A stretch of 64,000 nucleotides of DNA, from the NCBI GenBank assembly GCA_963710755.1, contig CAVQBK010000007.1:32001-96000 (forward strand), written 5' to 3'. The stretch comes from an uncultured bacterium (lineage in GTDB: Bacteria > Oederibacteriota > JAAXVQ01 > JAUVAV01). Below are positions 23,933 through 46,660 of the stretch, piece by piece (position 1 is the stretch's first letter; each line of letters opens with the position of its first letter). The notes beneath the pieces were generated by a model that had not been told where the DNA came from, searched no databases, and saw nothing but the letters and a program-made list of their open reading frames with translations. The position numbers and the translations under genes were made by a program.

Positions 23933-24052
23933 ATTTTCCCGACCACCAATGGTCGTTCCTTTTCCTTTGAAGCCCGTCTGAAAAAACAAACTTTGGCTTT
24001 TAAATCGAACCTTTTTCGTCCTGGAAATACTGAAGGTTCAATCCCGTAAAAC

Positions 24053-24069
24053 TTGGCATACTTCCTGCT
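24053..24069 (+). promoter_or_regulatory. sigma54 promoter of the nifH operon
   Basis: TTGGCATACTTCCTGCT, GG-N10-GC. Confidence 0.85.
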
Positions 24070-24109
24070 CTATACAAGGTCAGCAATCGTAATCGGTCCG
24101 GAGAACTAA

Positions 24110-24964
<855 letters not shown>

Positions 24965-25093
24965 CTTATCCTGCGGTTTACCGCAGAATAAATAAAAGCA
25001 AAAGGAAATTAATATTAAAGCTCATTCATTCCGGGGCAGGCTCCGGGGAATTCCGGAAACGACTTACGCCGGTAAAAAAGGAGGAAAAAGGTC

Positions 25094-25815: not shown

Positions 25816-25828
25816 AGGAGCAGGCATC

Positions 25829-27463: not shown

Positions 27464-27611
27464 ACTTTCTCCGGACCGGTGCATCGACTCATTGGAGAGA
27501 AATAGCGGTTATTGATCCTGTCGAAATGACCGCAAGCAGTTACCTTCGCTTGCACCTTTACGCCGACAAACTTAGCGAGCGGTGCAGGGAGGATCCTAGG
27601 AGGTTTTCATC

Positions 27612-28979: not shown

Positions 28980-29002
28980 GGGAAAAGAAAAGAGGCCTGG
29001 CC

Positions 29003-30343: not shown

Positions 30344-30519
30344 CATCCGGCGGGCGTTTGTTCGAAAAGTAGGGAACAGGCCACTTGCCCGGCTCATGCT
30401 GGATGCCTGTACCCTGCAAAAAATGGAGTTCATCCCGTTTTTCCCGAAGGCTTGCGATTGACTTTCTTTTATTAACAAGCAGGCAGGGATCAGGGGAAAA
30501 AAATAATCCGGTGAGTGCT

Positions 30520-31887: not shown

Positions 31888-31911
31888 GAGAATGAAAAGA
31901 GGTGACGGACG

Positions 31912-33195
31912 ATGAGCTTAGAATTGAAAAATCATCCTTGTTTTAATGAAACCGTCAGACACAGTGTGGGCCGGGTACATTTGCCGGTGGCGCCACGTTG
32001 CAATGTACAGTGCAATTTCTGCAACCGTTCTTTTGACTGTGTCAATGAAAGCCGGCCCGGTGTGACCAGCTCCCTGCTTTCTCCGGAGCAGGCGCTGGCC
32101 TATCTGGATTATATGCTGGCAAAAAAACCAAACATTACGGTTGTGGGTATCGCCGGTCCCGGTGATCCCTTTGCCAATCCGGTGGAAACATTGGAGACTT
32201 TAAAACTGGTGCGTGCCCGTTATCCTCAAATGCTGTTGTGTCTGGCCAGCAATGGCTTGAATGTGCCTGATTTTGTGGATGACTTGGCCAAACTGCAGGT
32301 GGCCCATGTAAGTCTGACGGTCAATACCCTGCGGGTGGCCACGGCTGCCAAAATCTATTCCTGGGTGCGTTTCGGCAAAAGGGTTTTCACCCAGGAAGAA
32401 GGCGCTGCCATTTTGCTTAAAAACCAGGAAGAAACCATTAAACGCCTAAAAGCGCATAATATTATTGTGAAAATCAATACGGTGGTAATTGAAGGCATTA
32501 ATGATCAGGAGGTGCCTGAAATTGCAGAACAGATGCATGCCTTGGGCGTGGACATTATGAACCCCATGCCCATGGTGGCCAATCAACTGGCAGCTTTCGG
32601 ACCAGCCCAAGTACCCTCGGCGACGACCATGCAACGTGTGCGTCAGGCCATCAGTGCTGAACTGCCGCTTATGTCGCATTGCGCCCGATGCCGTGCTGAT
32701 GCCGCCGGGCTGATCGGGGAATCCATGACCGCAGAGGAGTTGGAGACCATTAAAACCTTTTCCAAAGGGTCGTCCCTGGAAAAAAAAGGCGGGGACGCTG
32801 TCATTGGCAAGCGCCCTTATGTGGCCGTGGCCAGCAGGGAAGGTGTGCTCATCAATCAGCATTTGGGAGAGGCAGAGCAACTTTTGATTTATGAAAAAAA
32901 CGGTCAGGGCGTGCGGCTGGTTCAAACGCTCAAGACTCCGGCGTCAGGTCTGGGCGATGAGCGGTGGCAGCAATTGGGTGCTCAACTGCGGAAATGCTCC
33001 ACCTTGTTGGTAAGCGGTATCGGGCAGCGGCCCATGGCGGTATTAAAAGAAAGCGGCTTGAATGTCTTGAGGGTGGAAGGGTTGATTGAAGAGATGGTGG
33101 GTCAGCTGTTAAAAGGAAAAGATGTATCCCGACTGCAAATTCCCGCCAAGAAATGCGGCGAAGCCTGCGCGGGAACCGGTATGGGCTGTTGTTGA
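31912..33195 (+). CDS. nifB: Radical SAM NifB with C-terminal NifX-like domain
   Basis: HPC, CNVQCNFC, ESRPG, AGPGDP, CARCRADA, INQHLG. Confidence 0.97.
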   Translation: MSLELKNHPCFNETVRHSVGRVHLPVAPRCNVQCNFCNRSFDCVNESRPGVTSSLLSPEQALAYLDYMLAKKPNITVVGIAGPGDPFANPVETLETLKLVRARYPQMLLCLASNGLNVPDFVDDLAKLQVAHVSLTVNTLRVATAAKIYSWVRFGKRVFTQEEGAAILLKNQEETIKRLKAHNIIVKINTVVIEGINDQEVPEIAEQMHALGVDIMNPMPMVANQLAAFGPAQVPSATTMQRVRQAISAELPLMSHCARCRADAAGLIGESMTAEELETIKTFSKGSSLEKKGGDAVIGKRPYVAVASREGVLINQHLGEAEQLLIYEKNGQGVRLVQTLKTPASGLGDERWQQLGAQLRKCSTLLVSGIGQRPMAVLKESGLNVLRVEGLIEEMVGQLLKGKDVSRLQIPAKKCGEACAGTGMGCC

Positions 33196-34216: not shown

Positions 34217-34353
34217 AAGTGGCCGGATGTGGTCCTGGCAGCCTCCCAGTCTCGGGAGTTATAATCTCTGCAGCCCTGGGGCTATGGAACCAAGTAGTGG
34301 CAGCACGGGTCAATTAAGTGATTTTGGATCCAGGTTAAAAGGAGGCTAATAAA

Positions 34354-35250
34354 ATGATGAATATAACTGTCACCACCCCGACCGGAAAGATAGGAAGGGT
34401 CGTTGTTAAAGGGTTGTTGAAGGAAAGCGTTCAGTTAACCTTGGTGGCCAGGTATCCGGAAAAACTCAAACAAGCAACGGAGCAAGGCGCTCGGGTGATT
34501 CAAGGCAGCAGTGATGATCCGGAGGTATTGAAACGGGCCACAAAAAACGCAGATGCTTTTTTCGTATTGACCCCGCCAGATATGGCCATGACAGACATTA
34601 GAGCACACTACCGTCGTTTTGGCGAGGCAGCAGCTCAAGCCATCACAGAGAATAACATTCCTTACGCAGTTCACCTGTCCAGTATTGGCGCGGAACTGGA
34701 GTCAGGCAATGGCCCGGTGGCCGGCTTGCATATCAATGAAGAAATCCTAAGGGCAGCCTGCCCGAATGTTGTTCAACTCCGAGCCGGTTATTTTATGGAA
34801 AACACCCTGGGTCAATTGCAGAGCATTCTTTCTTCATCCAGTTTGTACACCACGTTGCCGCAGGGCACCAAACTTTCTATGGTTGCCACTGAGGATATCG
34901 GCCAAAAAGCGGTGGAACTTTTAAAAAAAATGAATTGGAAGGGCGAAGAAATTGTGGAATTGGTCGGTCCTCACGAAATTAGCTACGAAGAGGTTGCCCG
35001 TATTTTATCCAAAGTGCTGGGCAAAGAAATAAAGCACATCACCATTTCAGAGGAACAATTTATTGAAGCCATGACCAAAATGGGTGCTTCCCGTGTAATA
35101 GCCGAAAGCTTTGCCGAAATGAGCAGGGCTCAGGCTTCACGAAAAATGACGGCTCATCATCCGGAAAAAGGCCGGATTTCTTATGAAACCTTTGCGAAGC
35201 AAGTTTTTAAACCAGCTTTTGAAGCTATGGCGCTGGCCAAAACCAGGTAA
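34354..35250 (+). CDS. NmrA-like NAD(P)H-binding protein
   Basis: TTPTGKIG, LSSIGA, LRAGYFMEN, VATEDIG. Confidence 0.88.
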   Translation: MMNITVTTPTGKIGRVVVKGLLKESVQLTLVARYPEKLKQATEQGARVIQGSSDDPEVLKRATKNADAFFVLTPPDMAMTDIRAHYRRFGEAAAQAITENNIPYAVHLSSIGAELESGNGPVAGLHINEEILRAACPNVVQLRAGYFMENTLGQLQSILSSSSLYTTLPQGTKLSMVATEDIGQKAVELLKKMNWKGEEIVELVGPHEISYEEVARILSKVLGKEIKHITISEEQFIEAMTKMGASRVIAESFAEMSRAQASRKMTAHHPEKGRISYETFAKQVFKPAFEAMALAKTR

Positions 35251-35268
35251 GACTGTCTTTAACAGACA

Positions 35269-36168
35269 TCAACCCCTGTTTTCAGGAGAATCCTGAGAAC
35301 GGGGGTTTTTTATTGCATCGAGTTCCGTCAGCAATGACATGAGGCCGCCCAGCAATAGGTGGGGGGACTGATCCAAGCCTTTGGCATGGGCACCGGTCAA
35401 AGAGACAAGGGTTTTGTTGCCACGCGGCAAGTCAACTAGCTGCCTGGCTACATCAAAGGGAATGACTTCATCTTCAGTGCTGTGTGCGATGACCACGGGA
35501 ATGGACAGGTTGCGCAAGCAGGCGGCGGTATTAAACCGTTCCGTAGTCATCCATCCGGTAGGCAGCCAGGGCACCACCCTGTGGGCGACATAGGCTACGG
35601 AGGGAAAAGCACCTTCCACGATCAGAGCAGCCGGTTGAAAAGTTAACGCCGACCAAGCAGCCAAAGCACTGCCAATGGATTGACCATAGAAGAGAATATG
35701 TTTGGGATCCAGCCTGCGTCTCTGTATCAGGAATTCCCAAACCGCCCGGCAATCCTGGCGCAGCCCCTTTTCAGTGGGCCTGCGGTGGGTGCTTTTTCCA
35801 AAACCCCGATAACTAAAGAGGACCAAATCAAAACCAGCCTCGTGCAGCACTTTTAGGCTTGGTAAAAATTTGGATAAAGTGCCTTCGTTGCCCGGAAAAA
35901 ACACCAAGGTCATGCCGCAGGCTGGTTTTTGACCGCTGGTCAAAGAACGTGGAATCAACCAGAGCTGCAGGCGTACGTGATCCGCTGTTTGAAGGAAAAG
36001 CTCTTCGTAGACCATGCCTAGGTCAGTGGGCAGGCGGCTCATCGCGCGGGAAGGAAAGAAAATAAAAAAACGGTGGAATACAAGATAACCAAGACTGATA
36101 CCCACATAGGTAGCCACCAATGCGAGTGCGACCGATAGCAGAGGATGGGAAGACAACCATGATAGCAT
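35269..36168 (-). CDS. Membrane-anchored alpha/beta hydrolase (ABHD13/17-like)
   Basis: N-terminal TM, YRGFGKS, GQSIG nucleophile elbow, HSTED, C-terminal His. AAGGAGG RBS at ATG 36168. Confidence 0.85.
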   Translation of the reverse strand: MLSWLSSHPLLSVALALVATYVGISLGYLVFHRFFIFFPSRAMSRLPTDLGMVYEELFLQTADHVRLQLWLIPRSLTSGQKPACGMTLVFFPGNEGTLSKFLPSLKVLHEAGFDLVLFSYRGFGKSTHRRPTEKGLRQDCRAVWEFLIQRRRLDPKHILFYGQSIGSALAAWSALTFQPAALIVEGAFPSVAYVAHRVVPWLPTGWMTTERFNTAACLRNLSIPVVIAHSTEDEVIPFDVARQLVDLPRGNKTLVSLTGAHAKGLDQSPHLLLGGLMSLLTELDAIKNPRSQDSPENRG

Positions 36169-36197
36169 GAGGCCTCCTTTGGGTAAGTAGCCCGGAA

Positions 36198-37577
36198 TTA
36201 TTTTAAAAGCCAGGCATAAATACTTTTTAGCCATCCGACACCGATGCGGTAGGGCGGCAACATAAGACGTCTTTTATTGTTGGACCGCTGGACCAGCACC
36301 GCCCGATAATGAGTAAAACAATCAAATCCGGCCCGGCCGTGATATTGGCCCATACCGCTTGCGCCTCGTCCACCCAATGGCAAATAAGGTGTACTGATTT
36401 GATTGATGGTGTCGTTAATGGCCGCTGTGCCCGAGGGCAGGCTTTCCAGCACGGTTCTAGACAACCGTGGATTTGCGGTGAACAGGTAAAGCGCCAGGGG
36501 TATGGGTTTCGACTTGAGGTCTGCAAGCAATTGGCCCAGGTCATGATAGGGCACGATGGGCAGGATGGGTCCGAATATCTCCTCTTTCAATAGCCGGCTA
36601 TCAGGGTGAATATTGGTCATGATCGTGGGTGCCAGGTAATTATCCAGCTCATCCCACTGTCCGCCCCACAGGATATTGCCTTCCTGCAAAAAAGCACGCA
36701 GCCGCGTCAGATGCTGCCGGTTGATGATGCGGCTGTAATCCGCACTGGCCTTGGGCTCAGGGCCGTAAAATCGGGTGATGGCTTTAATCAGCTCCTGCTC
36801 CAGAGTGTTCTGGAATTGTGCGGGTACATAAACCATGTCCGGGGCAACGCAAGTTTGACCGGCATTTAAAAACTTGCCCCATACGATGCGTAGGGCGGCA
36901 GAGGGCAAATGGGCGTCGTCCATGAGGAGGCAGGGATTTTTCCCTCCCAATTCCAGAGTTACCGGAATAAGCTGCCGGGCTGCGGCGGCCATGACCAGCC
37001 TGCCTATGTGCGTGCTGCCGGTGAAAAAAATATGATCCCAGTGCTGTTCGAGCAGGGCTTCTGCGGTTTTAGCGTCACCCAGTTGAACATGGCAAACAGT
37101 GTCGGGAAGACAGTCAGCCAGCATGGTCTTCAACCTATTACCGCTCTGTGGCGCCATTTCAGAAGGCTTGACAACAACGCTATTGCCGGCCGCCAAAGCA
37201 CTAATTAAAGGTGTGAGCGTAAGCCCCAAGGGATAATTCCAAGGGCTGATTATGAGCACCACCCCTTTGGGCTCGGGAATTACCAGGCTGTGACCGGGGA
37301 AAAGCATAGGGGGCGTGTGTTTTTTTTGCGGTCTCATCCAACGACCAAGATGGTCCAAGGCATAACTCAGCTCGCGATGCACCAACCCCAATTCCGAGGT
37401 ATAAGCTTCCACTGCATTTTTTCCCAAGTCCTGACGCAACGCCGAGAGCAGGGCCTGTTCATGGGTGAACAGGCCCTGGCGCAAGCTGAGCAGTTGCCGG
37501 CGCCGAAATCCATAGGTGCGGGTTTGGCCATTGGCCATAAAGGCTTTCTGATTTTTTACCACATCATCAATGAACAT
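36198..37577 (-). CDS. aldH: Aldehyde dehydrogenase (ALDH3 family; probable diapocarotenoid aldehyde dehydrogenase AldH/CrtNc)
   Basis: PWNYP, FTGS, LELGGK, NAGQTC, EEIFGP. The carotenoid role is inferred from neighbourhood. Confidence 0.8.
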   Translation of the reverse strand: MFIDDVVKNQKAFMANGQTRTYGFRRRQLLSLRQGLFTHEQALLSALRQDLGKNAVEAYTSELGLVHRELSYALDHLGRWMRPQKKHTPPMLFPGHSLVIPEPKGVVLIISPWNYPLGLTLTPLISALAAGNSVVVKPSEMAPQSGNRLKTMLADCLPDTVCHVQLGDAKTAEALLEQHWDHIFFTGSTHIGRLVMAAAARQLIPVTLELGGKNPCLLMDDAHLPSAALRIVWGKFLNAGQTCVAPDMVYVPAQFQNTLEQELIKAITRFYGPEPKASADYSRIINRQHLTRLRAFLQEGNILWGGQWDELDNYLAPTIMTNIHPDSRLLKEEIFGPILPIVPYHDLGQLLADLKSKPIPLALYLFTANPRLSRTVLESLPSGTAAINDTINQISTPYLPLGGRGASGMGQYHGRAGFDCFTHYRAVLVQRSNNKRRLMLPPYRIGVGWLKSIYAWLLK

Positions 37578-37586
37578 GGTTATTAT

Positions 37587-37604
37587 TTATCACATTTATG
37601 ATAA
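37587..37604. promoter_or_regulatory. Palindromic operator candidate in the divergent aldH / TPR-crtP gap
   Basis: TTATCA-N6-TGATAA perfect dyad. Confidence 0.4.
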
Positions 37605-37662
37605 TATTGCACTGGTCATTTCTGCAGCGGCACAGGCTGTGATCCGAAAGGAGCTGTCGAGC

Positions 37663-38448
37663 ATGCTGAAACCAGTCATAATATTTTTATTATTGGCGGG
37701 GTGGAGTTGGCCTGCGCGAGGGGGACCTCCATCGGAAGAAACCATTGTGAACCAAGGCATCAGGCAGTTGCAGCAGGCTATCAACCATTGGCAGGCCGAC
37801 GCCTTTGATCAGGCGGCAAAGCTGTTCAATGAAGCTGCGAGCACCTCTGATCAGGACAGCCGCGTTTATTATTGGCTGGGGGTGACCTATTATTATAAGG
37901 CGTCCTACTACCTTTACGCGCGGCCGCAAGACCGGGTTGAAGCCGAAGGCAAACAGGCTGTTAACCTGGGCATAGAAGCTTTGAAAAAAGCCGTTCACTT
38001 GGCGCCCGACGAATCAGAAACCCATGCCTTGCTGGGCGTGCTCCAGGGCATGATGATCCAAATGAATCCCTGGTCAGCCCTAAGCGCCGGTCCGCAAGTG
38101 GAACAGCACCGCAAGCAAGCCTTGCACCTTAATCCCGACAATCCCAGAGTGCATTATTTAACCGGCCTAAGTTTGTACATGACTCCTCAGCTGTTCGGCG
38201 GCAGCCGTGATCTCGCACTTCAGCATTTATTGACTGCTCAGACTTTATTCGAAAAAGAACGGACAAATTCTCCCGAACCGCTGGAACCGCGCTGGGGTTA
38301 TGATATGGACCTGGCCTTTATTGGTGAAATTTATTATAAGCAAAATCAAATTAAAGAAGCCTACCGTTATTACCAAAAAGCCTTACTGGTGAATCCTCAC
38401 AATTTAAAAGCCTTACAAGGGCTGGAGCAACTTCACTTCGAAAAATAA
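37663..38448 (+). CDS. Exported TPR protein
   Basis: AAGGAG RBS, signal peptide, TPR motifs (YWLG, ALHLNPDNPR, ALLVNP). Confidence 0.8.
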   Translation: MLKPVIIFLLLAGWSWPARGGPPSEETIVNQGIRQLQQAINHWQADAFDQAAKLFNEAASTSDQDSRVYYWLGVTYYYKASYYLYARPQDRVEAEGKQAVNLGIEALKKAVHLAPDESETHALLGVLQGMMIQMNPWSALSAGPQVEQHRKQALHLNPDNPRVHYLTGLSLYMTPQLFGGSRDLALQHLLTAQTLFEKERTNSPEPLEPRWGYDMDLAFIGEIYYKQNQIKEAYRYYQKALLVNPHNLKALQGLEQLHFEK

Positions 38449-38471
38449 TGTGGTACGAAAAGGAGACGGCC

Positions 38472-39962
38472 ATGACCAACAAGCAACGTGGGAAAGTGGT
38501 GGTGATCGGCGCCGGCCTGGGAGGACTTTCGGCCGCCATCTCGCTGGCCACCATAGGTTATGAGGTGGAGATCTTTGAAAAAAATGACAAAGTGGGCGGA
38601 AAACTCAACGTGATGAAAAAAGAAGGCTTTTCCTTTGATCTGGGTCCGTCCATTCTTACCCTGCCCCATTTTTTTCGCCGCTTGTGGGAGCGGGCCGGAA
38701 GACGCATGGAAGACGATGTACCCCTACAGCGTGTCAGCCCGCATTGGCGAAATATTTTTGAAGACGGCCGTGTGATCGACTTGTATTTCGAACCGGAAAA
38801 AATGGAAACGGAATTGCTCAAACTTGGCGATCGCCGTTTGGTCCGTCAATTCCGAGCATTTCTTGACTATGCTGGCGGGCAGTATGATTTGATTAATAGG
38901 GGATACTTTGAGCAGGGGTTGGACACCACCGCTGATTTTTCCTCTTACTACGATTTTAAATCCCTGCTGACCATGGATTATTGGCACAGTATGCACGGCA
39001 GCGTGCGCCGTTTTTTCAAAAATCCCTACCTGGTGGATATTTTTGATTATTTTATTAAATACGTCGGCTCTTCCGCTTACCGGGCGCCGGGGTTCATGAA
39101 CCTCATGCCTGTTATTCAATTTCGCTATGATCTGTGGTATGTCCAAGGCGGCATGTACAATCTGGCCCGCGGTCTGGAACGCCTGGCCCGCAGCCTGGGG
39201 GTGACTATTCACCTCAACAGTGAAGTCGTTAAAATTAACAAACAACCGGGCCGGGTGACCGGTCTGACCTTGGCCGACGGTGGGATCATAGAGGCTGGTA
39301 TTATTGTTTCCAATATGGAAGTCCTTCCAGCTTGCCGTGCCTTGCTGGATGAAGATCAGGCCTTCTTGAAAAAATTAAATAAATTTGAGCCGGCCTGTTC
39401 AGGGTTGGTGCTGCATTTGGGGACAGATAAAGTTTACCCGCAATTGGCCCATCACAATTTCATTTATTCCCGCAATCAAAGAGAGCATTTTAAAACTGTC
39501 TTCCAAAAGCATCGCATTCCCCAGGACCCTACCCTGTATGTGGTGGCCCCGTCGCGCACCGATTCCACGGTCTGTCCGCAAGGGGGTGACAACATCAAAG
39601 TACTGCCTCATATTCCTCATCTTGACCCCAATCACCCTACGACAGTCCAGGACTATCTTGAGCTGAAGGAAAGGGTATTGGATAAATTGGAGCGGATCGG
39701 CCTTAAGGATCTGAGACGTCATATCGTAGTGGAAGATATGTGGACACCCTATGATATTGAAAAAAACTACTATTCCAATCACGGCGCTATTTATGGGGTG
39801 GTTTCGGACCGCTTTAAAAACTTCGCCCTCAAAGCGCCCAAACAGAGCACGCGTTACAGCAATTTATATTTCGTGGGGGGCTCGGTCAATCCCGGCGGCG
39901 GTATGCCTATGGTTGTTTTATGCGGACAGAATGTGGCCAAGGACATCGCCGCCCATAGTTAA
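38472..39962 (+). CDS. crtP: 4,4'-diapolycopene/diaponeurosporene oxygenase (CrtP/CrtNb)
   Basis: GAGLGG, FDLGPSILT, YFIKYVGSS, GGSVNPGGGMPMV, which match CrtP-type signatures. Confidence 0.85.
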   Translation: MTNKQRGKVVVIGAGLGGLSAAISLATIGYEVEIFEKNDKVGGKLNVMKKEGFSFDLGPSILTLPHFFRRLWERAGRRMEDDVPLQRVSPHWRNIFEDGRVIDLYFEPEKMETELLKLGDRRLVRQFRAFLDYAGGQYDLINRGYFEQGLDTTADFSSYYDFKSLLTMDYWHSMHGSVRRFFKNPYLVDIFDYFIKYVGSSAYRAPGFMNLMPVIQFRYDLWYVQGGMYNLARGLERLARSLGVTIHLNSEVVKINKQPGRVTGLTLADGGIIEAGIIVSNMEVLPACRALLDEDQAFLKKLNKFEPACSGLVLHLGTDKVYPQLAHHNFIYSRNQREHFKTVFQKHRIPQDPTLYVVAPSRTDSTVCPQGGDNIKVLPHIPHLDPNHPTTVQDYLELKERVLDKLERIGLKDLRRHIVVEDMWTPYDIEKNYYSNHGAIYGVVSDRFKNFALKAPKQSTRYSNLYFVGGSVNPGGGMPMVVLCGQNVAKDIAAHS

Positions 39963-39988
39963 ACTTCCAGGAAAAAGGAGCCTGACCT

Positions 39989-40609
39989 ATGGATGGCTAT
40001 GATCTTTTGATACTGGTCGTGACCGGGACGGTGCTGGGACGCTTCTTAGTCCATATCATTGGCTTGCGGCAGCGTGGACTTAAAATCAATCATCTGGGCT
40101 ATAAGAAACAAGGCCTGCCGCGCCTGGTGGAAATCGCGATTCTACCCTTGGCGATGCTGATGCTCATTGAGGTTGTCGCGCATGCCCTGTACCCTGATGT
40201 TCGCCAGGCCGGTTTATGGCCACTCGGGTCCTGGCACCAGGCAGCGGGTGCAGTGCTGTTGGTCGCGGCCTTGATACTCTTGTGGTTGACGCTGCGCCAT
40301 TTCGGTCCCTCTTACCGACTGGGTGTAGACCATACCAACCCCGGCGCCTTGGTACGAAAGGGCGTTTTTGCCTATTCCCGGAATCCCATCTACCTCGGTT
40401 TGGACAGCTTGTTTGCAGGCTGCTTTCTGATTTACCCCAATTGGTTTTTCTTTTTCATGATGATCGGCGCCTGCTTGACCATGCATTTCATGATCTTAAG
40501 TGAAGAACGGGCCTTGAAGGTGCTTTATGGCCAGGCTTATTTGGATTACCAAAAAGCGGTTCCCCGCTATCTGGGGTTGACCCTATTAAAAAAAGGGGGC
40601 CGGCCATGA
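39989..40609 (+). CDS. ICMT/PEMT-family integral membrane methyltransferase
   Basis: Multi-TM; LVRKGVFAYSRNPIYLG, EE-x2-L-x3-YG-x2-Y-x2-Y-x3-VPRY. Confidence 0.85.
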   Translation: MDGYDLLILVVTGTVLGRFLVHIIGLRQRGLKINHLGYKKQGLPRLVEIAILPLAMLMLIEVVAHALYPDVRQAGLWPLGSWHQAAGAVLLVAALILLWLTLRHFGPSYRLGVDHTNPGALVRKGVFAYSRNPIYLGLDSLFAGCFLIYPNWFFFFMMIGACLTMHFMILSEERALKVLYGQAYLDYQKAVPRYLGLTLLKKGGRP

Positions 40610-41697
40610 GCATGCTTATCGTGGTGGGCGCGGTGCTTTGGATTTTGGGCTGGTTGGTCCTTTGGAAACTGCCCGCTTGTCCCCGTACAATCCTGTCCTC
40701 AACACCGCCGGCGTTGTCCGTGATCATTCCCGCCCGCGATGAAGAGCGCAACTTGCAGCAGTTGCTGCCGTCCCTGTTTGGCCAGGGATTCCCTGCCCTG
40801 GAGGTGGTGGTGGTTGATGACGGCTCCGTAGATCGCACGGCCGTGGTTGCTGCTGGTCTGGGGGCCAAGGTGATTATTGCCAAACCTTTACCCTCCGGTT
40901 GGACCGGAAAAGCCTGGTCTTGTCAGCAGGGAGCCGACCAGGCCAAAGGAGAGGTGCTGCTCTTCTTAGATGCTGATACGCAGGTGGAAGCAGGTGGTTT
41001 GGCCCGTATGGTGGCCGCGCTGCAGGCTCGACCGGAGTTGGTGTCGATTGCGCCCTATCAGTTGGTGCCTACCTGGACAGAACAGGGGTCGGTTTTTTTT
41101 AATTTCATGCAGCTGGCTGGGATGCAAGCCTTTACGCTCTTGGGCCATCGGCTTAAGCCGGCAGGCATGTTTGGGCCTTGTTTTTTAGCCACCAAGGAAG
41201 ATTACCAAAGGGCAGGCGGCCATAAGGCCGCTGCCGGAGAGGTTCTGGAAAATTACGCCTTGGCGCGCGCGGCCATGTCCAAGGGCGTGGCCGTACGCTT
41301 GCTGGGCGGTCAGGGGGTACTGTCGGTGCGCCTCTATGGGACGGGGATCAAAGCCCTAGTCGCCGGCTGGACCAAATCTTTTTTAAACGGGGCCAACCGG
41401 ACCCCACCGCTGATCATGGCCATGCTTTGCTTATGGATATCGGGTATGATCATTGCACTAACCAGCTTGATGGTGGCGCTGCTGACCGGTTATGGTGCCG
41501 AAAACGCACTGATCCTTTATGCGCTTTACACGGGGCAATTGCTTTGGCAATTCAAGCGTCTCGGTTCTTATCGGGCCGTCACCGCTTTGTTCTATCCGGT
41601 GCCATTGCTGTTCTTTTTGGCGCTCTTTGCCAGGGCGGCATTATTGAAAAGGATGGGCAGGGCGGCAACATGGAAAGGAAGGGAGGTTGGGCTATAG
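40606..41697 (+). CDS. crtQ: GT2 glycosyltransferase, CrtQ-like (diapocarotenoate glucosyltransferase)
   Basis: IIPARDEE, VDDGS, GWTGKAWSC, FLDAD, FGPC, C-terminal TMs and WKGR. Confidence 0.78.
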   Translation: MSMLIVVGAVLWILGWLVLWKLPACPRTILSSTPPALSVIIPARDEERNLQQLLPSLFGQGFPALEVVVVDDGSVDRTAVVAAGLGAKVIIAKPLPSGWTGKAWSCQQGADQAKGEVLLFLDADTQVEAGGLARMVAALQARPELVSIAPYQLVPTWTEQGSVFFNFMQLAGMQAFTLLGHRLKPAGMFGPCFLATKEDYQRAGGHKAAAGEVLENYALARAAMSKGVAVRLLGGQGVLSVRLYGTGIKALVAGWTKSFLNGANRTPPLIMAMLCLWISGMIIALTSLMVALLTGYGAENALILYALYTGQLLWQFKRLGSYRAVTALFYPVPLLFFLALFARAALLKRMGRAATWKGREVGL

Positions 41698-41736
41698 AGA
41701 TGATGATGAACAAAAAATAAAAAAACGGAGGGTCAC

Positions 41737-42603
41737 ATGCGCAACCTAATGATGATGATGCTGATTTTGGCGGCAGTACTGATATGGAATAATCAAGCTG
41801 TCCGAGCCTTAGAAAATGAGGCTGCAAGCAGCACGGACGCCCTGTCTTGGCCAACTTTACGGGGAACCGTGGAAACAGGCTTTCTGGCCGTGCTGGACCA
41901 TCGTATTCAATTTGGCCAGGATGGGACCTATTTTTCTTATACCCGTGACGGCGGGCAGGATGTACTTTTTCCCTTTACACGACTCAGCCTGGATCTGCGG
42001 TTAAGTCCGAGAGATACGGTAGTGTTGCTCTATCAACCGCTCGATTTAATTACCCGTACCACCTTGCGGGAATCGATCGTGGTGGATAAGACAACGTTTA
42101 CTGCAGGCACACCCATGGAATTTCGTTATAGCTTTCCTTTTTACCGCATCAGCTATTTGTATGATTTTATTGCTGAAGAAGCCGATGAGTTGGCCTTGGG
42201 GTTATCGCTGCAGATCCGCAATACCAGTATTGAATTTTTAGCGCTCAATGGTGATCGCTTGGTGCGTAAATCCAATATCGGGCCTGTGCCGGTTATAAAA
42301 GTCCGGGGCCGTCATCAGTATGCTAACGGTACCTGGGTGGCCATGGAAGCCGATGGCTTTTACGCGCCCATTAGTTACCTCAATGGCAGTGATAATGAAG
42401 TGGTGGGGGCAATTTTGGACGCCAGTGTGCGCTACGGCTGGACCTTTGGCCGGGACGCCCAAGCGTTTATTAATTTGCGCTACCTGGGCGGCGGAGCAGT
42501 GGGGACCAGCACCAACGAACCGGCACCAAGTGACGGTTATACCAAGAATTGGTTGCATTTTCTGACGCTCAGTGTAGGCTTTAATTATACCTTGCGGCCA
42601 TAA
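41737..42603 (+). CDS. Exported protein, probable outer-membrane beta-barrel
   Basis: Signal peptide, alternating beta-strand pattern, C-terminal LSVGFNYTL. Confidence 0.65.
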   Translation: MRNLMMMMLILAAVLIWNNQAVRALENEAASSTDALSWPTLRGTVETGFLAVLDHRIQFGQDGTYFSYTRDGGQDVLFPFTRLSLDLRLSPRDTVVLLYQPLDLITRTTLRESIVVDKTTFTAGTPMEFRYSFPFYRISYLYDFIAEEADELALGLSLQIRNTSIEFLALNGDRLVRKSNIGPVPVIKVRGRHQYANGTWVAMEADGFYAPISYLNGSDNEVVGAILDASVRYGWTFGRDAQAFINLRYLGGGAVGTSTNEPAPSDGYTKNWLHFLTLSVGFNYTLRP

Positions 42604-42621
42604 GCACGGTGGGGAGGGCTG

Positions 42622-44145
42622 TTACACTTTCAGGTTGTTGGTGAAAAACTGCACTTTATATTTTTTAGAGATAAGATTGGCGGTGATGCGGCCTGACTCA
42701 TAAATGGTGGGCAGGCCGCTGCCGGGATGAGTGCCGCCACCGACCAAATAACAATGGTTCAATTCCTCAAATTGGTTACGCGGTCTTAAGTAAAGCAGCT
42801 GGCTCAGTTGATGTCCCAGGTTGAACGTGGCACCTTTGTATATCCCATAAGTATCTTCCCAGTCCTGAGGCGTGATGATGATCTCCGCCTTAATATGCTG
42901 CTTAATATCCTTCATCACCGTGCGCTCCGCAATGGTGCTGAGCACCAATTCACGGTACTCTTCCTTTTCTTTGGCCCAGTCTACCGGGGCAAAGCGATTG
43001 GGAGTGGGCACCAAAATATACACGGCCGATTGACCCTTAGGGGCCAGGGTGGGATCGGTAACACTGGCATTGCGGATATAGATGCTCATGTCTTTTGACA
43101 GCACTTTGTTTTTAAAGATATCATCCACATTTTGTCGGTACTTTTTGGAAAAACTGATGGTGTGGTGGGGCAGGTCGTAAAGTTTGTCCAATCCCAGGTA
43201 AAGCATGAAAGTGGAACAGGAAAAATGCTTTTTTTCCAACTTGGGTTTGCTCCATCTCGACAGAATTCCATCGGGAACCAACGTGGTCATGGCATGAGCA
43301 AAGTCGGCGTTGATAATCACTTCATCAGCGGTAATAGTCTCGCCGTTTTCCAACACCACGCCCTTCACCTTCCTGCCTTGCAGCTGCAAGGTTTTTACCG
43401 GTGTATTCAGATGAATCTCAGCGCCCTGGCTTTGAGCCACTTTGGCCATGGCGTCTGAAATGGCACTCAAGCCGCCTTCGGTATGATAAATGCCGTAAGC
43501 ATGTTCAATTATGGACAGCATGGCAAACAATCCCGGACAATCCCAGGGCGACATGCCCAAATATTTAGCCTGGAAGGTAAAGGCAATGCGTAATTTTTCA
43601 GGCAGGAAATAATCACCGAGTACGTTGATCAAACTGCGGCCGGCCGCCAAATAGGGAATAGCTTTGAGAAGATCGCGGGAAAACATTTTGGAAATAGTTG
43701 CATAGTCTTTTTGCAGACAGGGGTAGAGTTTTTCAAAACGGATCATCTCTTTGCGGTAATAATTATGCAGCCCTTTTTCTTCGCCCGGGAAATGGCGGGC
43801 AATTTGACTGGCCATTTGTTGCTGGTCCGTGGTGGGCTCGATGGTCATATCGTCAAATTGCAGACGGTACATGGGGTCGAGCCGGGTAAACTTAAGGTAG
43901 TCTTCACTTTTGCTGCCGGCTTCGATAAACACTTCATCCAAGATCTGCCTCAGCATTAAAAAGGTGGGCCCTGTATCGAATTTGAAGCCATTCACCTCAA
44001 GGGCGGCATTACGCCCGCCAACTCGGTCTTTTTTTTCAAACACCGTGACTTTGAAACCCCGTTTGGCCAGAAGCATGGCGCTGGTCAGCCCACCGGGACC
44101 GGCGCCGATGACCACGATATGTTTGGAAGAAGAGTATCTGTTCAA
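42622..44145 (-). CDS. crtN: 4,4'-diapophytoene desaturase (CrtN, CrtI family)
   Basis: GAGPGG, FDTGPTF, FQAKYLGMSPW, GGGTHPGSGLPTIYES; TTG start. Confidence 0.82.
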   Translation of the reverse strand: MNRYSSSKHIVVIGAGPGGLTSAMLLAKRGFKVTVFEKKDRVGGRNAALEVNGFKFDTGPTFLMLRQILDEVFIEAGSKSEDYLKFTRLDPMYRLQFDDMTIEPTTDQQQMASQIARHFPGEEKGLHNYYRKEMIRFEKLYPCLQKDYATISKMFSRDLLKAIPYLAAGRSLINVLGDYFLPEKLRIAFTFQAKYLGMSPWDCPGLFAMLSIIEHAYGIYHTEGGLSAISDAMAKVAQSQGAEIHLNTPVKTLQLQGRKVKGVVLENGETITADEVIINADFAHAMTTLVPDGILSRWSKPKLEKKHFSCSTFMLYLGLDKLYDLPHHTISFSKKYRQNVDDIFKNKVLSKDMSIYIRNASVTDPTLAPKGQSAVYILVPTPNRFAPVDWAKEKEEYRELVLSTIAERTVMKDIKQHIKAEIIITPQDWEDTYGIYKGATFNLGHQLSQLLYLRPRNQFEELNHCYLVGGGTHPGSGLPTIYESGRITANLISKKYKVQFFTNNLKV

Positions 44146-44262
44146 ACTGTCACCGCCTTGGATAGAGGTGAAGCGCAGCTTGCCTTCGCTCCTTTAAAGA
44201 CGCTTTATCATAGCAAAAACGGAACAAATACCCAACCTCAAGTTGATGAAGACGCCGAAAAT

Positions 44263-45702
44263 CTAAATGCCTTTGTAAGCAGCCAAAGCTTCCTGGCGGG
44301 CTTGTTGATGATCAACCACCGGCCGGGGATAATGCTTGCCCAGCACCACCCCGGCCTGATGCAGGACGGACGCTGGAGCGCGCCAGGGATGGTGCAGCCA
44401 AGGCAGAGGCAGCCTTTCCAACTCCGGCAGCCATCGCCGGATATAGGTGCCATGGGGGTCGAATTTTTGGCTCTGGGTGGCGGGATTGAATATCCTGAAA
44501 AAGGGCGCTGCATCAGGCCCACATCCTGCCGTCCATTGCCATCCCAGGGTATTGTTGGGCAGATCAGCATCTACCAGATGCTGCCAGAACCAGCGGGCAC
44601 CGGCCTGCCAGGGTTGCATGAGATCCTTGGTTAAAAAGGAGGCTACCACCAACCGTACCCGGTTATGCATGAAGCCTGTGGCCAACAGTTCTCTCATGCC
44701 CGCATCCACCAAAGGATAGCCGGTTTGGCCCTGCTGCCAGGCCTGTAAAAAACGGTTGTTATTCTTCCATGGGAAAGCCCGGAAACGAGGATTGAGTGCT
44801 TGGTCACTGGTGTGGGGAAAAGCATGGAGCAGGTGATAGGCGAAGTCCCGCCAGTATAGCTGGCGGGAAAACGCGTTGATGCTATCGCCCACGTTGACGG
44901 AAGTCTGGGGTTTTTCTTGGTTAGCCACCTCATGCCAGAGGCTGCGCATGCTGATCTCGCCGAAATGCAAATGGGGTGACAAGCGTGAGGTGGCCAAAAT
45001 GGATGGGAAATCATGATCTTTGGCGTAAAGACACAGGCCTTGCCGGAGGAAACGGTTCAATTGCTTTCGGGCGCCGCGGCTGCCTGGCATCCAGTACGGC
45101 TGCAGACTGGGCCCCCTGGAAGGGGTCAACAGCCTAAGTTGGTCCAACTTGAGCCCCGAGGGCCAGCGCCCGGGTGCAGTCAGTATCCTTGGTTTGGGTG
45201 AGGGCTGAGGCAGAGATCCAAGGGCCAGGGCTTTGCGCCAAAAAGGGGTAAAGACTTTAAAGGGTGTGCCTTGAGCGGTGCTCAAGCTTTTCGGAGGGTG
45301 AAACAAGACATCATGAAAGCCCTGACACTGCCAGCCGGAAGCGCGCAAGCTTGTGACGAGCCGTTCATCAGCCTGTTGATCCAGCGGGTGGTAACGGTAG
45401 GTGAATAAAAGTGTTTTGCTGCCGGTGTTGGTGGATAGGGTTTTTAGAATTTTTAAAGGCTGGCCTTGAAACAGAAGCAGCCGCGAACCCATGGCTAAAA
45501 GGTCCTCAGCCAAAGCCTGCAGGCTATGGTGGAGCCACCAGCGCGAGGCCGGACCAGGTGACCAGGGATCATGACCATTGACCGTCCAAATGAAAAGCGG
45601 GATCACCGGCCGGCCCGTAGCCCGGCTGGCCAGCAAAGCCTGATGGTCGCTGACCCTCAGATCCTGGCGAAACCATAATAACGCAGGGGTCTTGTCAGCC
45701 AT
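44263..45702 (-). CDS. phrB: CPD DNA photolyase
   Basis: WFRQDLR, TSRLSPHLHFG, WRDF, TGYPLVDAGMR, MHNRVR, NNTLGWQW. Confidence 0.95.
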   Translation of the reverse strand: MADKTPALLWFRQDLRVSDHQALLASRATGRPVIPLFIWTVNGHDPWSPGPASRWWLHHSLQALAEDLLAMGSRLLLFQGQPLKILKTLSTNTGSKTLLFTYRYHPLDQQADERLVTSLRASGWQCQGFHDVLFHPPKSLSTAQGTPFKVFTPFWRKALALGSLPQPSPKPRILTAPGRWPSGLKLDQLRLLTPSRGPSLQPYWMPGSRGARKQLNRFLRQGLCLYAKDHDFPSILATSRLSPHLHFGEISMRSLWHEVANQEKPQTSVNVGDSINAFSRQLYWRDFAYHLLHAFPHTSDQALNPRFRAFPWKNNNRFLQAWQQGQTGYPLVDAGMRELLATGFMHNRVRLVVASFLTKDLMQPWQAGARWFWQHLVDADLPNNTLGWQWTAGCGPDAAPFFRIFNPATQSQKFDPHGTYIRRWLPELERLPLPWLHHPWRAPASVLHQAGVVLGKHYPRPVVDHQQARQEALAAYKGI

Positions 45703-46660
45703 GGTTACGTAACATCAATTCTTTAGGATGAGGGTTTAAATAGGACTGATCCAGTAAATAAGTAACTTCGTATTTCTGAAGATAATGTTTGAGCAATGTC
45801 AAGGGGACTACTAAGGGAATCAGCTGCTGGTGATAATCATCGATGACCGCCAATAGTGAGGCCTTGTCATCAGCAGATAACTCTTTTTTTAGATAACCCA
45901 GCATATGGGTGAGTACATTGGTGTGTTTTTTGACGGTGGCTTTTAGCTCCAAGGCTTCCATAAAGAGGCTGCTATAGGCGGTTTGGAAGGTCTGGGGCGT
46001 ATGCGTTTTAACGGACGCCACCAGGCTGCCCAATTTTTGATAATGGCTGGGACTGTGGCTCATGAGCAGAAGTTTTTGGCGGGTATGAAAGGCCACAACC
46101 ACGCCGCGGGTGAAGGGCTGGTGCCATAACTGTTGCAAACGGTGATAGGCAAAGATGCGCTCGATGAAATTTTCCCTTAAGACCGGATCATGGAGGCGGC
46201 CTTCGTCCTCCACCGGGATCAGAGGAAAGCGTTCCATGAATTGGCGGGCAAACAGACCGGGGCCTTTGGCCGCCACCTGGCCGGCGTTATTATAGATCTT
46301 GACCCGGTCCATGCCCGAACTGGGCGACTTGCTCTTGAAGATAAACCCGTCCAGGTTGACCAGACCATCTAGTCGTCGGGTGGCGTAAGCCAGCATGGCG
46401 TCAGTCCAATCGTGGCCGCTGCGAATGCCTTTCAGCCGGGAATGGTCGGCGGCGCCCACCAGACGTACCGCCTCCCTGGGGATGCCCATACCCACTTCCA
46501 CTTCCGGGCAAACGGGTACCCAGTCCACATAGGGACCCAACGTATCAGTGAGATAAGGATCCCACTTATGGCCGCCGTCATAGCGGACCTTTTCACCCAG
46601 CAGACAGGCACTGATGCCGAGCGTGATTTTTTCGGAAACAGCATCACCAAGACCGTTCAT
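45695..46660 (-). CDS. ybgA: DUF523-DUF1722 fusion (YbgA / TudS-domain desulfidase)
   Basis: GISACLLGEKVRYDG, CPEVE, KSPSSG, FH...KLLLM, HMLGY; overlaps the phrB start. Confidence 0.9.
   Translation of the reverse strand: MNGLGDAVSEKITLGISACLLGEKVRYDGGHKWDPYLTDTLGPYVDWVPVCPEVEVGMGIPREAVRLVGAADHSRLKGIRSGHDWTDAMLAYATRRLDGLVNLDGFIFKSKSPSSGMDRVKIYNNAGQVAAKGPGLFARQFMERFPLIPVEDEGRLHDPVLRENFIERIFAYHRLQQLWHQPFTRGVVVAFHTRQKLLLMSHSPSHYQKLGSLVASVKTHTPQTFQTAYSSLFMEALELKATVKKHTNVLTHMLGYLKKELSADDKASLLAVIDDYHQQLIPLVVPLTLLKHYLQKYEVTYLLDQSYLNPHPKELMLRNHG

What the first reader, a model, noticed from the sequence alone, without database searches (positions are those of the whole stretch)
39989..40609. ICMT-family methyltransferase between crtP and crtQ: candidate carotenoic-acid carboxyl methyltransferase
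Seen: ICMT/PEMT motifs and an ATGA overlap with crtQ. Established: ICMT enzymes methyl-esterify the carboxyl group of isoprenylated substrates in the membrane, and methyl-esterified glycosyl C30 apocarotenoates occur in some bacteria. Inference: this enzyme caps one acid end of diapolycopenedioate while CrtQ glucosylates the other. I am not aware of this role having been assigned to the family.
Basis: inference. Interest (0 to 1): 0.72.

Follow-up and report, generated by a model that had tools for sequence, protein, structure and literature searches.

The report
Membrane methyltransferase inside a carotenoid operon
A small membrane methyltransferase gene sits, translationally coupled, between the oxidase and the sugar-transferase genes of a pigment operon; it is a testable but unproven candidate for the enzyme that caps pigment acids as methyl esters.

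Summary
ORF 39989..40609 (+, 206 aa) matches Pfam PEMT (E 4.6e-11) and ICMT (1.3e-5), both above cut-off. Its model (pLDDT 91) superposes best on archaeal Ma-ICMT (TM 0.71/0.76). It lies between a CrtP orthologue and a CrtQ-type GT2 and shares an ATGA overlap with the GT2.

The arrangement recurs in another genus (G009, 44% identity, same ATGA). It is missing, with no remnant, from a sister genome (G007) that keeps the rest of the cluster. That pattern suits an optional tailoring gene.

The protein belongs to a rare, well-supported clade. Every clade member whose context I could read is crt-linked. More distant relatives (28-46% identity) are not: 77 of 80 metagenome loci show no cluster gene.

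Carboxyl methyl-esterification of the acid made by CrtP and AldH is the best reading, at about 0.45, and it is inference only. My literature searches found no enzyme assigned to this step.

One caveat is large. No squalene, phytoene or diapophytoene synthase gene (PF00494) exists in any of the four genomes that carry the cluster. It is also missing from 26 of the 28 genomes of the phylum that carry the CrtN-like gene. The backbone, and so the exact substrate, is unexplained.

Verdict: a new variant of a known kind, of moderate interest.

The parts
39989..40609 (+). ICMT/PEMT-superfamily integral membrane methyltransferase (the finding). It is the candidate carboxyl O-methyltransferase of the pigment pathway.
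   Evidence: Pfam PEMT 4.6e-11 and ICMT 1.3e-5. AF2 model pLDDT 91.4. Best fold match 4a2n Ma-ICMT, TMq 0.71 / TMt 0.76. Residues R110, G112, R131, P133, E172, E173 and Y187 are invariant in 65 relatives.
38448..39962 (+). CrtP-type oxidase (CrtI family), 26 nt upstream of the methyltransferase gene.
   Evidence: TIGR02734 347.8 bits, above cut-off. It is 61-75% identical to the 120 best relatives, many named diapolycopene oxygenase by JGI.
40606..41697 (+). CrtQ-type family-2 glycosyltransferase. Its start overlaps the methyltransferase stop (ATGA).
   Evidence: Glycos_transf_2 1.1e-22. It is 40-52% identical to proteins named 4,4'-diaponeurosporenoate glycosyltransferase by JGI. The overlap is read.
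37570..38448 (+). Exported TPR protein, conserved in every version of the cluster. The true start is probably near 37663, which gives a signal-peptide-like N-terminus (inference).
   Evidence: TPR_11 1.4e-14. Orthologues in G009 and G007 are 46-47% identical.
36198..37577 (-). Aldehyde dehydrogenase, divergent from the TPR-CrtP operon. It is expected to turn the CrtP aldehyde into the acid.
   Evidence: Aldedh 1.6e-81. Orthologues in G009 and G007 are 49-50% identical and lie in the same cluster.
35269..36234 (-). Membrane-anchored alpha/beta hydrolase downstream of aldH, conserved in the cluster. Its role is unknown; an acyl transfer or esterase role is possible.
   Evidence: Abhydrolase_1 2.8e-12. 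Orthologues in G009 and G007 are 46-49% identical.
41737..42603 (+). Outer-membrane beta-barrel-like protein, last gene of the + strand operon. It is found only in this genus.
   Evidence: No Pfam or NCBIfam hit. Atlas feature hits at 0.98-0.99 include an 'outer membrane protein beta-barrel' cluster. It is absent from the G009 and G007 loci.
42622..44145 (-). CrtN-type desaturase (CrtI family), convergent with the operon and co-directional with photolyase.
   Evidence: TIGR02734 483.1 bits. Orthologues in G007 and G009 are 64-67% identical inside their clusters. Orthologues occur in 28 of 99 genomes of the phylum.
44263..46660 (-). DUF1722/2-thiouracil-desulfurase-like gene (45695..46660) and DNA photolyase (44263..45702), upstream of and co-directional with crtN. 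This is likely a light-linked unit.
   Evidence: Pfam hits. The same neighbours stand beside the solo CrtN-like genes of other families.

Best explanation
The gene encodes a five-helix integral membrane, SAM-dependent O-methyltransferase of the ICMT/PEMT superfamily. It has been recruited as an optional tailoring enzyme of the pigment pathway encoded around it.

Proposed mechanism. The lipid substrate enters sideways from the bilayer. The cofactor sits in the conserved C-terminal half (R131-x-P133-x-Y135 ... E172-E173). The methyl group goes to a terminal carboxylate of the polyene (apocarotenoid-type) acid that CrtP and AldH produce, giving a neutral methyl ester. The overlapping GT2 esterifies a sugar to a carboxyl, either the other end of a di-acid or a competing fraction of a mono-acid.

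Shown: the fold, the family, the conserved motif, the operon position, its conservation in a second genus, and its loss in a sister genome.

Inferred: SAM use, the acceptor atom, and the identity of the lipid.
For: Family and fold. Pfam PEMT and ICMT are above cut-off. NCBIfam hits are only to methyltransferases of this fold, isopcys_mtase and LmtA, both below cut-off. The model has pLDDT 91.4, and its best PDB match is Ma-ICMT 4a2n over 204 columns, TM 0.71/0.76.

Operon position. There is a 26-nt gap after crtP and an ATGA overlap with the GT2. In G009, at 44% identity, there is a 4-nt gap after crtP and again an ATGA overlap, within the same CrtN/hydrolase/AldH/TPR/CrtP/GT2 cluster.

Optional step. 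G007, of the same genus as G009 and 100% complete, keeps the cluster with only 7 nt between crtP and the GT2. It has no match to the protein anywhere.

Rare dedicated clade. Of 1.84 billion representatives, only the query and two others reach E <= 1e-30. The window protein, G009 and P0054-P0057 form a clade with SH-aLRT 99 among 65 relatives. P0055 and P0054 come from contigs of 24271 and 3423 nt, the same lengths as the contigs of the CrtP homologues P0206 and P0208 and, for 24271, the GT2 homologue P0326. Co-location is inferred from those lengths. L075 repeats the methyltransferase-ATGA-GT2 junction.

Separate paralogue. A second, distant PEMT/ICMT gene lies elsewhere in the genome (C13), so this copy is an extra one.

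Chemistry. The name-giving members of the family methylate a carboxyl next to an isoprenoid (family name; the mechanism is recalled). Methyl-esterified C30 carotenoic acids exist, and the enzyme is called unknown in the passages I read (PMC10448405; PMC8502411).
Against: There is no biochemical or expression evidence.

The independent instances are few. G001 is not independent, because its cassette is 97-100% identical in DNA. L075 holds only a truncated copy.

Wider relatives are not crt-linked. Of 80 metagenome loci, 77 have no hit to any cluster gene, although 36 of the 80 are shorter than 2.5 kb. None of the 145 ORFs from 20 longer loci matches a carotenoid family. Of the 10 genome loci from the collection scan, only the G001-like one is crt-linked.

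The family also methylates other atoms. SrsB sits in an alkylresorcinol operon (passage in PMC6669644), and LmtA is a lipid A phosphate methyltransferase by its NCBIfam name.

No PF00494 synthase is present in G000, G001, G007 or G009. The G000 result is confirmed by tblastn and by my own HMM with 6 of 6 positive controls. The presumed C30 substrate therefore has no known source.

Another C30 cluster, in Exiguobacterium, carries a class I SAM methyltransferase instead (PMC8851196).
Confidence: 0.45

Rival explanations
1. The enzyme serves the same pathway but uses a different acceptor. It O-methylates a hydroxyl of the sugar or of the pigment, or another nucleophile, rather than a carboxyl.
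For: The operon evidence is the same as for the best explanation. Family members are annotated with other acceptors: the SrsB methyltransferase of the alkylresorcinol srs operon (passage in PMC6669644) and the LmtA lipid A phosphate methyltransferase (NCBIfam name). The protein misses the isoprenylcysteine equivalog cut-off by a wide margin (40.5 against 160 bits).
Against: The only polar groups that the neighbouring enzymes are expected to create are the carboxyl (CrtP and AldH) and the sugar hydroxyls. The active site of this fold lies within the membrane (Ma-ICMT match), which suits a lipid-borne carboxylate better than a sugar. That last point is inference.
Confidence: 0.18
2. The whole cluster works on a lipid other than a C30 carotenoid. 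Candidates are a polyene or isoprenoid acid from an unknown synthase, or a scavenged precursor. The methyltransferase caps the carboxyl of that lipid.
For: PF00494 is absent from all four cluster-bearing genomes and from 0 of 10 other genomes of the family. Twenty-six of the 28 genomes with a CrtN-like gene in the phylum lack it. A phytoene-desaturase-like enzyme that acts on fatty acyl chains is known, UfaD (passage in PMC7380195). The CrtN-like gene occurs alone beside photolyase in other families.
Against: CrtP and the GT2 are close orthologues (61-75% and 40-52% identity) of widespread proteins annotated for the C30 pathway. The gene set CrtN + CrtP + AldH + GT2 is the textbook C30 acid-glycoside set (introduction of PMC10448405, passage).
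Confidence: 0.17
3. The gene is a passenger with a housekeeping role, such as phospholipid, thiol or protein methylation, and merely sits in the operon.
For: Most relatives at 28-46% identity lie in unrelated contexts. Pfam scores PEMT higher than ICMT. G007 does without the gene.
Against: Tight coupling at both junctions is kept across genera at 44% identity. All clade members with readable context are crt-linked. A separate distant paralogue exists for housekeeping roles. The gene travels within the 97-100% identical cassette shared by two species.
Confidence: 0.12
4. It is not a methyltransferase but an NAD(P)H-dependent C=C reductase of the same fold superfamily (DUF1295 / steroid-reductase type), acting on the polyene.
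For: The G009 orthologue passes the DUF1295 cut-off (24.9 against 20.4 bits). Foldseek lists sterol and steroid reductases 4quv, 7bw1 and 7c83 at weak scores.
Against: PEMT and ICMT score higher in both orthologues. In the window protein DUF1295 is below cut-off (16.3 against 20.4 bits). The best fold match by far is Ma-ICMT (TM 0.71/0.76, against TMq/TMt of 0.45/0.25 for 4quv and 0.45/0.38 for 7c83). NCBIfam hits are only to methyltransferases.
Confidence: 0.05

Closest known systems
Ma-ICMT (PDB 4a2n) and eukaryotic ICMT/Ste14 (PDB 5v7p, 5vg9)
   Same: The overall fold is shared (TM 0.71/0.76 to 4a2n). The C-terminal cofactor region also aligns, with R-x-P-x-Y and E-E aligned to 5v7p. These are membrane-embedded enzymes that methylate a carboxyl next to an isoprenoid chain (the function is taken from the family name and from recall).
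   Different: Sequence identity is only 15-23%. The isoprenylcysteine equivalog NF040696 scores 40.5 against a cut-off of 160 bits. The presumed substrate is a free lipid acid, not a prenylated protein. The gene sits in a pigment operon.
SrsB, the ICMT-family methyltransferase of the Streptomyces alkylresorcinol (srs) operon
   Same: It is an ICMT-family enzyme used as a tailoring methyltransferase of a membrane lipid, inside a small biosynthetic operon (passage in PMC6669644).
   Different: The pathway is a type III PKS phenolic lipid pathway, and the acceptor is different. I did not compare sequences because I held no SrsB sequence.
Staphyloxanthin-type C30 pathway (CrtM, CrtN, CrtP, AldH, CrtQ, CrtO)
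   Same: CrtN-, CrtP-, AldH- and CrtQ-type genes are clustered. The pathway is as summarised in PMC10448405 (passage).
   Different: No CrtM/HpnCD/Sqs gene is found, and no CrtO-type acyltransferase was seen. The extra genes are the ICMT-like methyltransferase, an exported TPR protein, an alpha/beta hydrolase and an outer-membrane barrel-like protein.
Carotenoid and terpenoid-acid methyltransferases of other folds: CrtF, plant norbixin carboxyl methyltransferase (SABATH), juvenile-hormone acid methyltransferase, and the class I SAM methyltransferase in the Exiguobacterium C30 cluster
   Same: They perform the same kind of reaction (methyl capping of pigment or terpenoid groups) or occupy the same kind of genomic position (PMC8851196 passage; listings; CrtF and SABATH are recalled).
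   Different: All are soluble Rossmann-fold (class I) enzymes. The protein here is an integral membrane enzyme of an unrelated fold.

Membership tests
ICMT/PEMT superfamily (Pfam PF04140 / PF04191) | Profile match above the curated cut-off | tested here: met
   PEMT 43.5 bits (cut-off 25) and ICMT 25.9 bits (cut-off 24). The G009 orthologue scores 36.2 and 30.6 bits.
ICMT/PEMT superfamily (Pfam PF04140 / PF04191) | Multi-helix membrane fold with a C-terminal cofactor-binding half like Ma-ICMT | tested here: met
   The model has pLDDT 91.4 with helices 3-28, 43-67, 82-105, 133-148 and 152-180. The top Foldseek hit is 4a2n, TM 0.71/0.76.
ICMT/PEMT superfamily (Pfam PF04140 / PF04191) | Conserved C-terminal R-H-P-x-Y ... 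E-E motif (the motif definition is recalled, not taken from a call) | tested here: met
   R131-N-P133-I-Y135 and E172-E173 are present. R131, P133, E172 and E173 are invariant in 65 relatives. Asn replaces His here, whereas His is kept in G009, P0054 and P0057.
ICMT/PEMT superfamily (Pfam PF04140 / PF04191) | SAM-dependent methyl transfer | not testable with these tools
   This needs an enzyme assay.
Protein-S-isoprenylcysteine O-methyltransferase proper (NCBIfam NF040696) | Equivalog score at or above cut-off | tested here: not met
   40.5 bits against a cut-off of 160.
LmtA lipid A phosphate methyltransferase (TIGR04571) | Score at or above cut-off | tested here: not met
   20.7 bits against a cut-off of 325.
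C30 carotenoid (staphyloxanthin-type) gene cluster | CrtN- and CrtP-type CrtI-family enzymes | tested here: met
   TIGR02734 gives 483.1 and 347.8 bits against a cut-off of 238.1. CrtP is 61-75% identical to proteins named diapolycopene oxygenase. No specific CrtN or CrtP equivalog model was hit.
C30 carotenoid (staphyloxanthin-type) gene cluster | Aldehyde dehydrogenase and CrtQ-type glycosyltransferase | tested here: met
   Aldedh 1.6e-81. The GT2 is 40-52% identical to proteins named 4,4'-diaponeurosporenoate glycosyltransferase.
C30 carotenoid (staphyloxanthin-type) gene cluster | A backbone synthase of the SQS_PSY family (CrtM, or HpnC/HpnD, or Sqs) somewhere in the genome | tested here: not met
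   PF00494 has 0 matches in G000 (98% complete), G001, G007 and G009 (the last two 100% complete). Tblastn with the relatives' loci gave no synthase hit. My own HMM gave a best E of 0.31, with 6 of 6 controls at <= 1e-60.
C30 carotenoid (staphyloxanthin-type) gene cluster | Pigment actually produced | not testable with these tools
   The window's genome comes from an uncultured source as far as the records show, and no RNA holder was listed.

The most novel reading that the evidence does not exclude
The ICMT-like protein founds a so far undescribed class of carotenoid-tailoring enzymes: membrane-embedded carboxyl methyltransferases that make carotenoate methyl esters. In addition, the pathway it serves draws its backbone from a route that does not use any squalene/phytoene-synthase-family enzyme. 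That route would be shared by the 26 genomes of this phylum that have a CrtN-like gene but no synthase.
Probability: 0.12. Interest if true: 0.8.

Novelty: new variant of a known kind. Interest (0 to 1): 0.55.

Why it matters
Methyl-esterified C30 carotenoic acids are known natural products. In the papers I could read, the methylating enzyme is either called unknown (PMC10448405) or left unassigned (PMC8502411).

A membrane-embedded ICMT-fold enzyme would be a chemically sensible solution, and no paper I found has reported it. It would add a new substrate class to the ICMT family and give pathway engineers a part for making neutral, more lipophilic carotenoid esters.

The natural presence/absence pair G009 and G007 offers a ready comparison.

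Separately, a CrtN/CrtP/AldH/CrtQ cluster in genomes with no detectable backbone synthase raises an open question. Either an unrecognised route to the C30 skeleton exists, or these well-known enzymes take another substrate.

Tried and rejected

2. CrtP-centred survey of a sampled class, centred on G099, at E <= 1e-120: 0 of 401 genomes. This is uninformative. The threshold was too strict: Methylobacterium CrtP is only 32.5% identical to the S. aureus enzyme by PMC10448405. Only 3 candidates per genome were scored. I therefore obtained no base rate of PEMT/ICMT genes beside crtP in other lineages, and no look at the known methyl-ester producers.

3. Sequencing runs: no RNA holder was listed.

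4. Synonymous against non-synonymous changes between G000 and G001: 3 against 3 codons in the methyltransferase gene, too few to use. My aldH coordinates in that script were out of frame, so I discard that row.

5. Fusion partners among longer relatives (P0066, P0108, P0130, P0202, P0123, P0195, P0181): cation-efflux and class I methyltransferase domains, or nothing. None is a carotenoid enzyme.

6. Promoter and terminator scan of 35000..44400: no convincing terminator between crtP, the methyltransferase gene and the GT2, but the scan is weak (17 terminator-like sites found, 12.5 expected).

7. My first HMM for the synthase search was contaminated with FAD proteins. I rebuilt it cleanly.

8. 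The exported TPR protein as a hidden synthase: rejected by reading its sequence. It has a signal-peptide-like N-terminus and real TPR profile hits. I made no model of it.

9. The isoprenylcysteine carboxyl methyltransferase mentioned in the Exiguobacterium paper: not listed among that cluster's genes.

10. No protein-binding prediction was run, because I make no binding claim.

Full report
**1. The observation**

The ORF at 39989..40609 (+) is 206 aa. It starts at an ATG preceded by a GGAG and ends in a TGA that overlaps the ATG of the next ORF, 40606..41697, as ccATGAgc. Pfam scores it as PEMT (E 4.6e-11, 43.5 bits, cut-off 25) and ICMT (E 1.3e-5, 25.9 bits, cut-off 24).

NCBIfam gives only sub-threshold matches to two methyltransferases of this fold: isoprenylcysteine O-methyltransferase (40.5 against 160 bits) and LmtA (20.7 against 325 bits). 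An AlphaFold2 model built on 65 relatives has mean pLDDT 91.4 and five long helices. Its best PDB match is the archaeal Ma-ICMT, 4a2n, with TM 0.71/0.76 over 204 columns. Eukaryotic ICMT follows, and sterol and steroid reductases of the same superfold come far behind.

R110, G112, R131, P133, E172, E173 and Y187 are invariant in the 65-sequence alignment. The R-x-P-x-Y and E-E stretches align with ICMT 5v7p.

**2. The surroundings**

- On the + strand: an exported TPR protein (37570..38448, probably starting near 37663), a CrtP-type oxidase (38448..39962), the methyltransferase, a CrtQ-type GT2 (40606..41697) and an outer-membrane barrel-like protein (41737..42603).
- Divergent on the - strand: an aldehyde dehydrogenase (36198..37577) and an alpha/beta hydrolase (35269..36234).
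- Convergent on the - strand: a CrtN-type desaturase (42622..44145), preceded by photolyase and a DUF1722 gene.

The CrtP-type protein is 61-75% identical to the 120 best of 3512 relatives at E <= 1e-50. Many of these are named diapolycopene oxygenase by JGI. The GT2 is 40-52% identical to proteins named 4,4'-diaponeurosporenoate glycosyltransferase. By gene content this is the C30 acid-glycoside pathway as summarised in PMC10448405 (passage).

**3. Is the linkage conserved?**

In 41 relatives, and then in all 99 genomes held for the phylum, strong orthologues of the methyltransferase occur only in G000, G001 (99% identity) and G009 (44%, E 1e-45). The next best hit is 1e-23.

G009 belongs to another genus of the family. 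It has CrtN, hydrolase, AldH, TPR, CrtP, the methyltransferase and the GT2 in one cluster. There is a 4-nt gap after crtP and again an ATGA overlap with the GT2.

G007 is of the same genus as G009 and is 100% complete. It has the same cluster, but only 7 nt separate crtP from the GT2, and the protein has no match anywhere in that genome. The simplest history is presence in the common ancestor and a clean loss in G007. That is the behaviour of a dispensable tailoring gene.

G001 is not independent evidence. From aldH to crtN its DNA is 97-100% identical to the window, in windows of 300 bases. Everything to the left of about 36100 is 60-82% identical. An 8-kb cassette that includes the methyltransferase gene has therefore recently been exchanged between two species, or one assembly is chimeric.

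**4. How wide is the clade?**

An exhaustive HMMER search of 1.84 billion representatives gave 6153 hits at E <= 1e-3 but only three at <= 1e-30: the query itself, P0054 and P0055. P0056 (3.9e-30, a fragment) and P0057 (1.6e-28) follow. All are singletons from short metagenome contigs.

In a quick IQ-TREE of 65 relatives, the window protein, G009 and P0054-P0057 form one clade with SH-aLRT 99. I picked the group by similarity, so the label is partly circular, and the careful tree search did not finish.

P0055 and P0054 come from contigs of 24271 and 3423 nt. Those lengths equal the contig lengths of the CrtP homologues P0206 (75%) and P0208 (72%), and 24271 also equals that of the GT2 homologue P0326 (51%). 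I infer, but could not verify, that they lie on the same contigs.

A metagenome contig, L075, has the last 88 codons of a clade member (55% identity), the ATGA overlap and the start of a GT2. An unrelated gene stands where the N-terminal half should be, so that copy is truncated or rearranged.

**5. The wider family is not crt-linked**

- Of 10 genome-collection loci, only the G001-like contig is crt-linked.
- Of the best 80 of 489 confirmed metagenome relatives (28-55% identity), 77 have no tblastn hit to any of the other 11 window proteins I queried. 36 of the 80 loci are under 2.5 kb and 29 are 5 kb or longer. Two further loci have only an alpha/beta hydrolase nearby.
- From the loci longer than about 6 kb I first picked 23. 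I dropped three near-duplicates (L064, L070, L138) and L134 to stay under the size limit, which left 19 loci. L079 (7056 nt) makes up the 20 loci scanned. Pfam annotation of 145 ORFs from these 20 loci shows heterogeneous contexts and no carotenoid enzyme.

The association is therefore a property of one small clade.

**6. Function**

What is shown: the family, the fold, the motif, operon membership and dispensability.

What is inferred: the enzyme uses SAM to methyl-esterify a carboxyl of the acid produced by CrtP and AldH, while the GT2 esterifies a sugar at the other carboxyl or on a competing pool. The inference rests on three points.
- The name-giving chemistry of the family.
- The position of the gene between the enzyme that begins carboxyl formation and the enzyme that uses a carboxyl.
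- The existence of natural methyl esters of C30 carotenoic acids whose enzyme is unknown (PMC10448405 passage) or unassigned (PMC8502411 passages).

I rate this at 0.45. The rivals are:
- another acceptor in the same pathway (0.18), supported by the SrsB passage and the LmtA name;
- the same chemistry on a non-carotenoid lipid (0.17);
- a passenger gene (0.12);
- a reductase of the same superfold (0.05), for which DUF1295 passes its cut-off only in the G009 orthologue.

**7. The main caveat, also the most surprising thing I saw**

PF00494 is the family of CrtM, CrtB, HpnC, HpnD and Sqs. It has no match in G000 (98% complete), G001, G007 or G009, nor in any of the 10 other genomes of the family. 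By contrast, 45 of the 99 genomes of the phylum have it, including 31 of 31 in family f9, and the named control genomes ring as expected.

In G000 I confirmed the absence in two ways. Tblastn with ORFs from ten relatives' hpnC/D loci hit only unrelated flank genes. A clean HMM of 14 HpnC/D sequences, run against 11152 six-frame ORFs with filters off, gave a best E of 0.31, while 6 of 6 held-out controls scored <= 1e-60. Two polyprenyl synthases are present.

CrtN-like orthologues (51-67% identity over full-length matches) occur in 28 of the 99 genomes. Crossed, only G049 and G064 of these 28 have PF00494. Outside the window's family the CrtN-like gene stands alone beside photolyase, DUF1722 or an ABC1 kinase, and in the window it follows DUF1722 and photolyase.

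Either an unrecognised synthase supplies the backbone, or the precursor is scavenged, or these enzymes take another substrate. A phytoene-desaturase-like acyl desaturase, UfaD, is a precedent for the last option (PMC7380195 passage). It does not weaken the case that the methyltransferase belongs to the pathway.

**8. Literature**

The library searches for an assigned carotenoate carboxyl methyltransferase, or for an ICMT-family gene in a carotenoid cluster, were. They returned no such assignment.

I read passages only of PMC8502411, PMC10448405, PMC9907078, PMC8851196, PMC6669644, PMC9598406 and PMC7380195. I read no supplements. Subscription journals are largely outside the library, so 'not in print' holds only for these searches.

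**9. Verdict**

The gene and its context are real. The proposed role is plausible, specific and cheaply testable, but it is unproven and so far confined to a rare lineage. I class it as a new variant of a known kind, an ICMT-fold lipid methyltransferase recruited to a pigment operon, with interest 0.55.

Noticed in passing
whole genome G000; also G001, G007, G009 and the phylum sample: No SQS_PSY-family gene (CrtM/CrtB/HpnC/HpnD/Sqs) is found in any of the four genomes that carry the CrtN/AldH/CrtP/GT2 cluster. Of the 28 genomes of the phylum with a CrtN-like orthologue, 26 also lack it. The source of the backbone is unexplained.
   Followed up: partly
window 34334..44167 against L013 (the G001-like contig): DNA identity jumps from 60-82% (left of about 36100: NmrA-like gene, alpha/beta hydrolase) to 97-100% (aldH through crtN, up to the contig end). 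An 8-kb pigment cassette, including the methyltransferase gene, has either been exchanged recently between two species or sits on a chimeric co-assembled contig.
   Followed up: partly
window 42622..46660 (- strand); L173, L176, L177, L169, L175: DUF1722, photolyase and the CrtN-like gene are co-directional in the window. In other families of the phylum the CrtN-like gene stands alone beside photolyase, DUF1722 or an ABC1 kinase, with no crtP, aldH or GT2 within 1.5 kb. This suggests a light-linked unit older than the crtP cluster.
   Followed up: partly
L075:1104..1522: This metagenome contig holds only the C-terminal 88 codons of a clade member, still ATGA-coupled to a GT2 start. An unrelated membrane zinc-ribbon ORF lies upstream. 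The copy is truncated or rearranged.
   Followed up: partly
window 41737..42603: This 288-aa protein has a signal-peptide-like start and no Pfam or NCBIfam family. It resembles outer-membrane beta-barrel clusters by language-model features. It is the last gene of the operon and is present only in this genus.
   Followed up: partly
window 37570..37577: The annotated starts of aldH (-) and the TPR gene (+) overlap by 8 nt. The TPR protein more likely starts at the Met near 37663, which gives a signal-peptide-like N-terminus and an 85-nt divergent promoter region. Likewise the hydrolase ORF probably starts downstream of its 37-nt overlap with aldH (inference).
   Followed up: no
window 22041..33195: A nitrogen-fixation cluster lies upstream: a sigma-54 activator with a GAF domain, NifH, four nitrogenase component-1-type genes (D/K/E/N-like) and a NifB-like radical SAM gene with a NifX-type domain.
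   Followed up: no
G000:C13:199505-199828: A second, distant PEMT/ICMT-family gene lies elsewhere in the genome (29% identity, E 4e-5, one TAA inside the match as reported by the tool).
   Followed up: no
L097:4498..6546 and L098: In two metagenome loci an alpha/beta hydrolase (33% identical to the cluster's hydrolase) lies directly upstream of a PEMT/ICMT gene, with no crt genes present. This may be a recurring hydrolase-methyltransferase pair.
   Followed up: no
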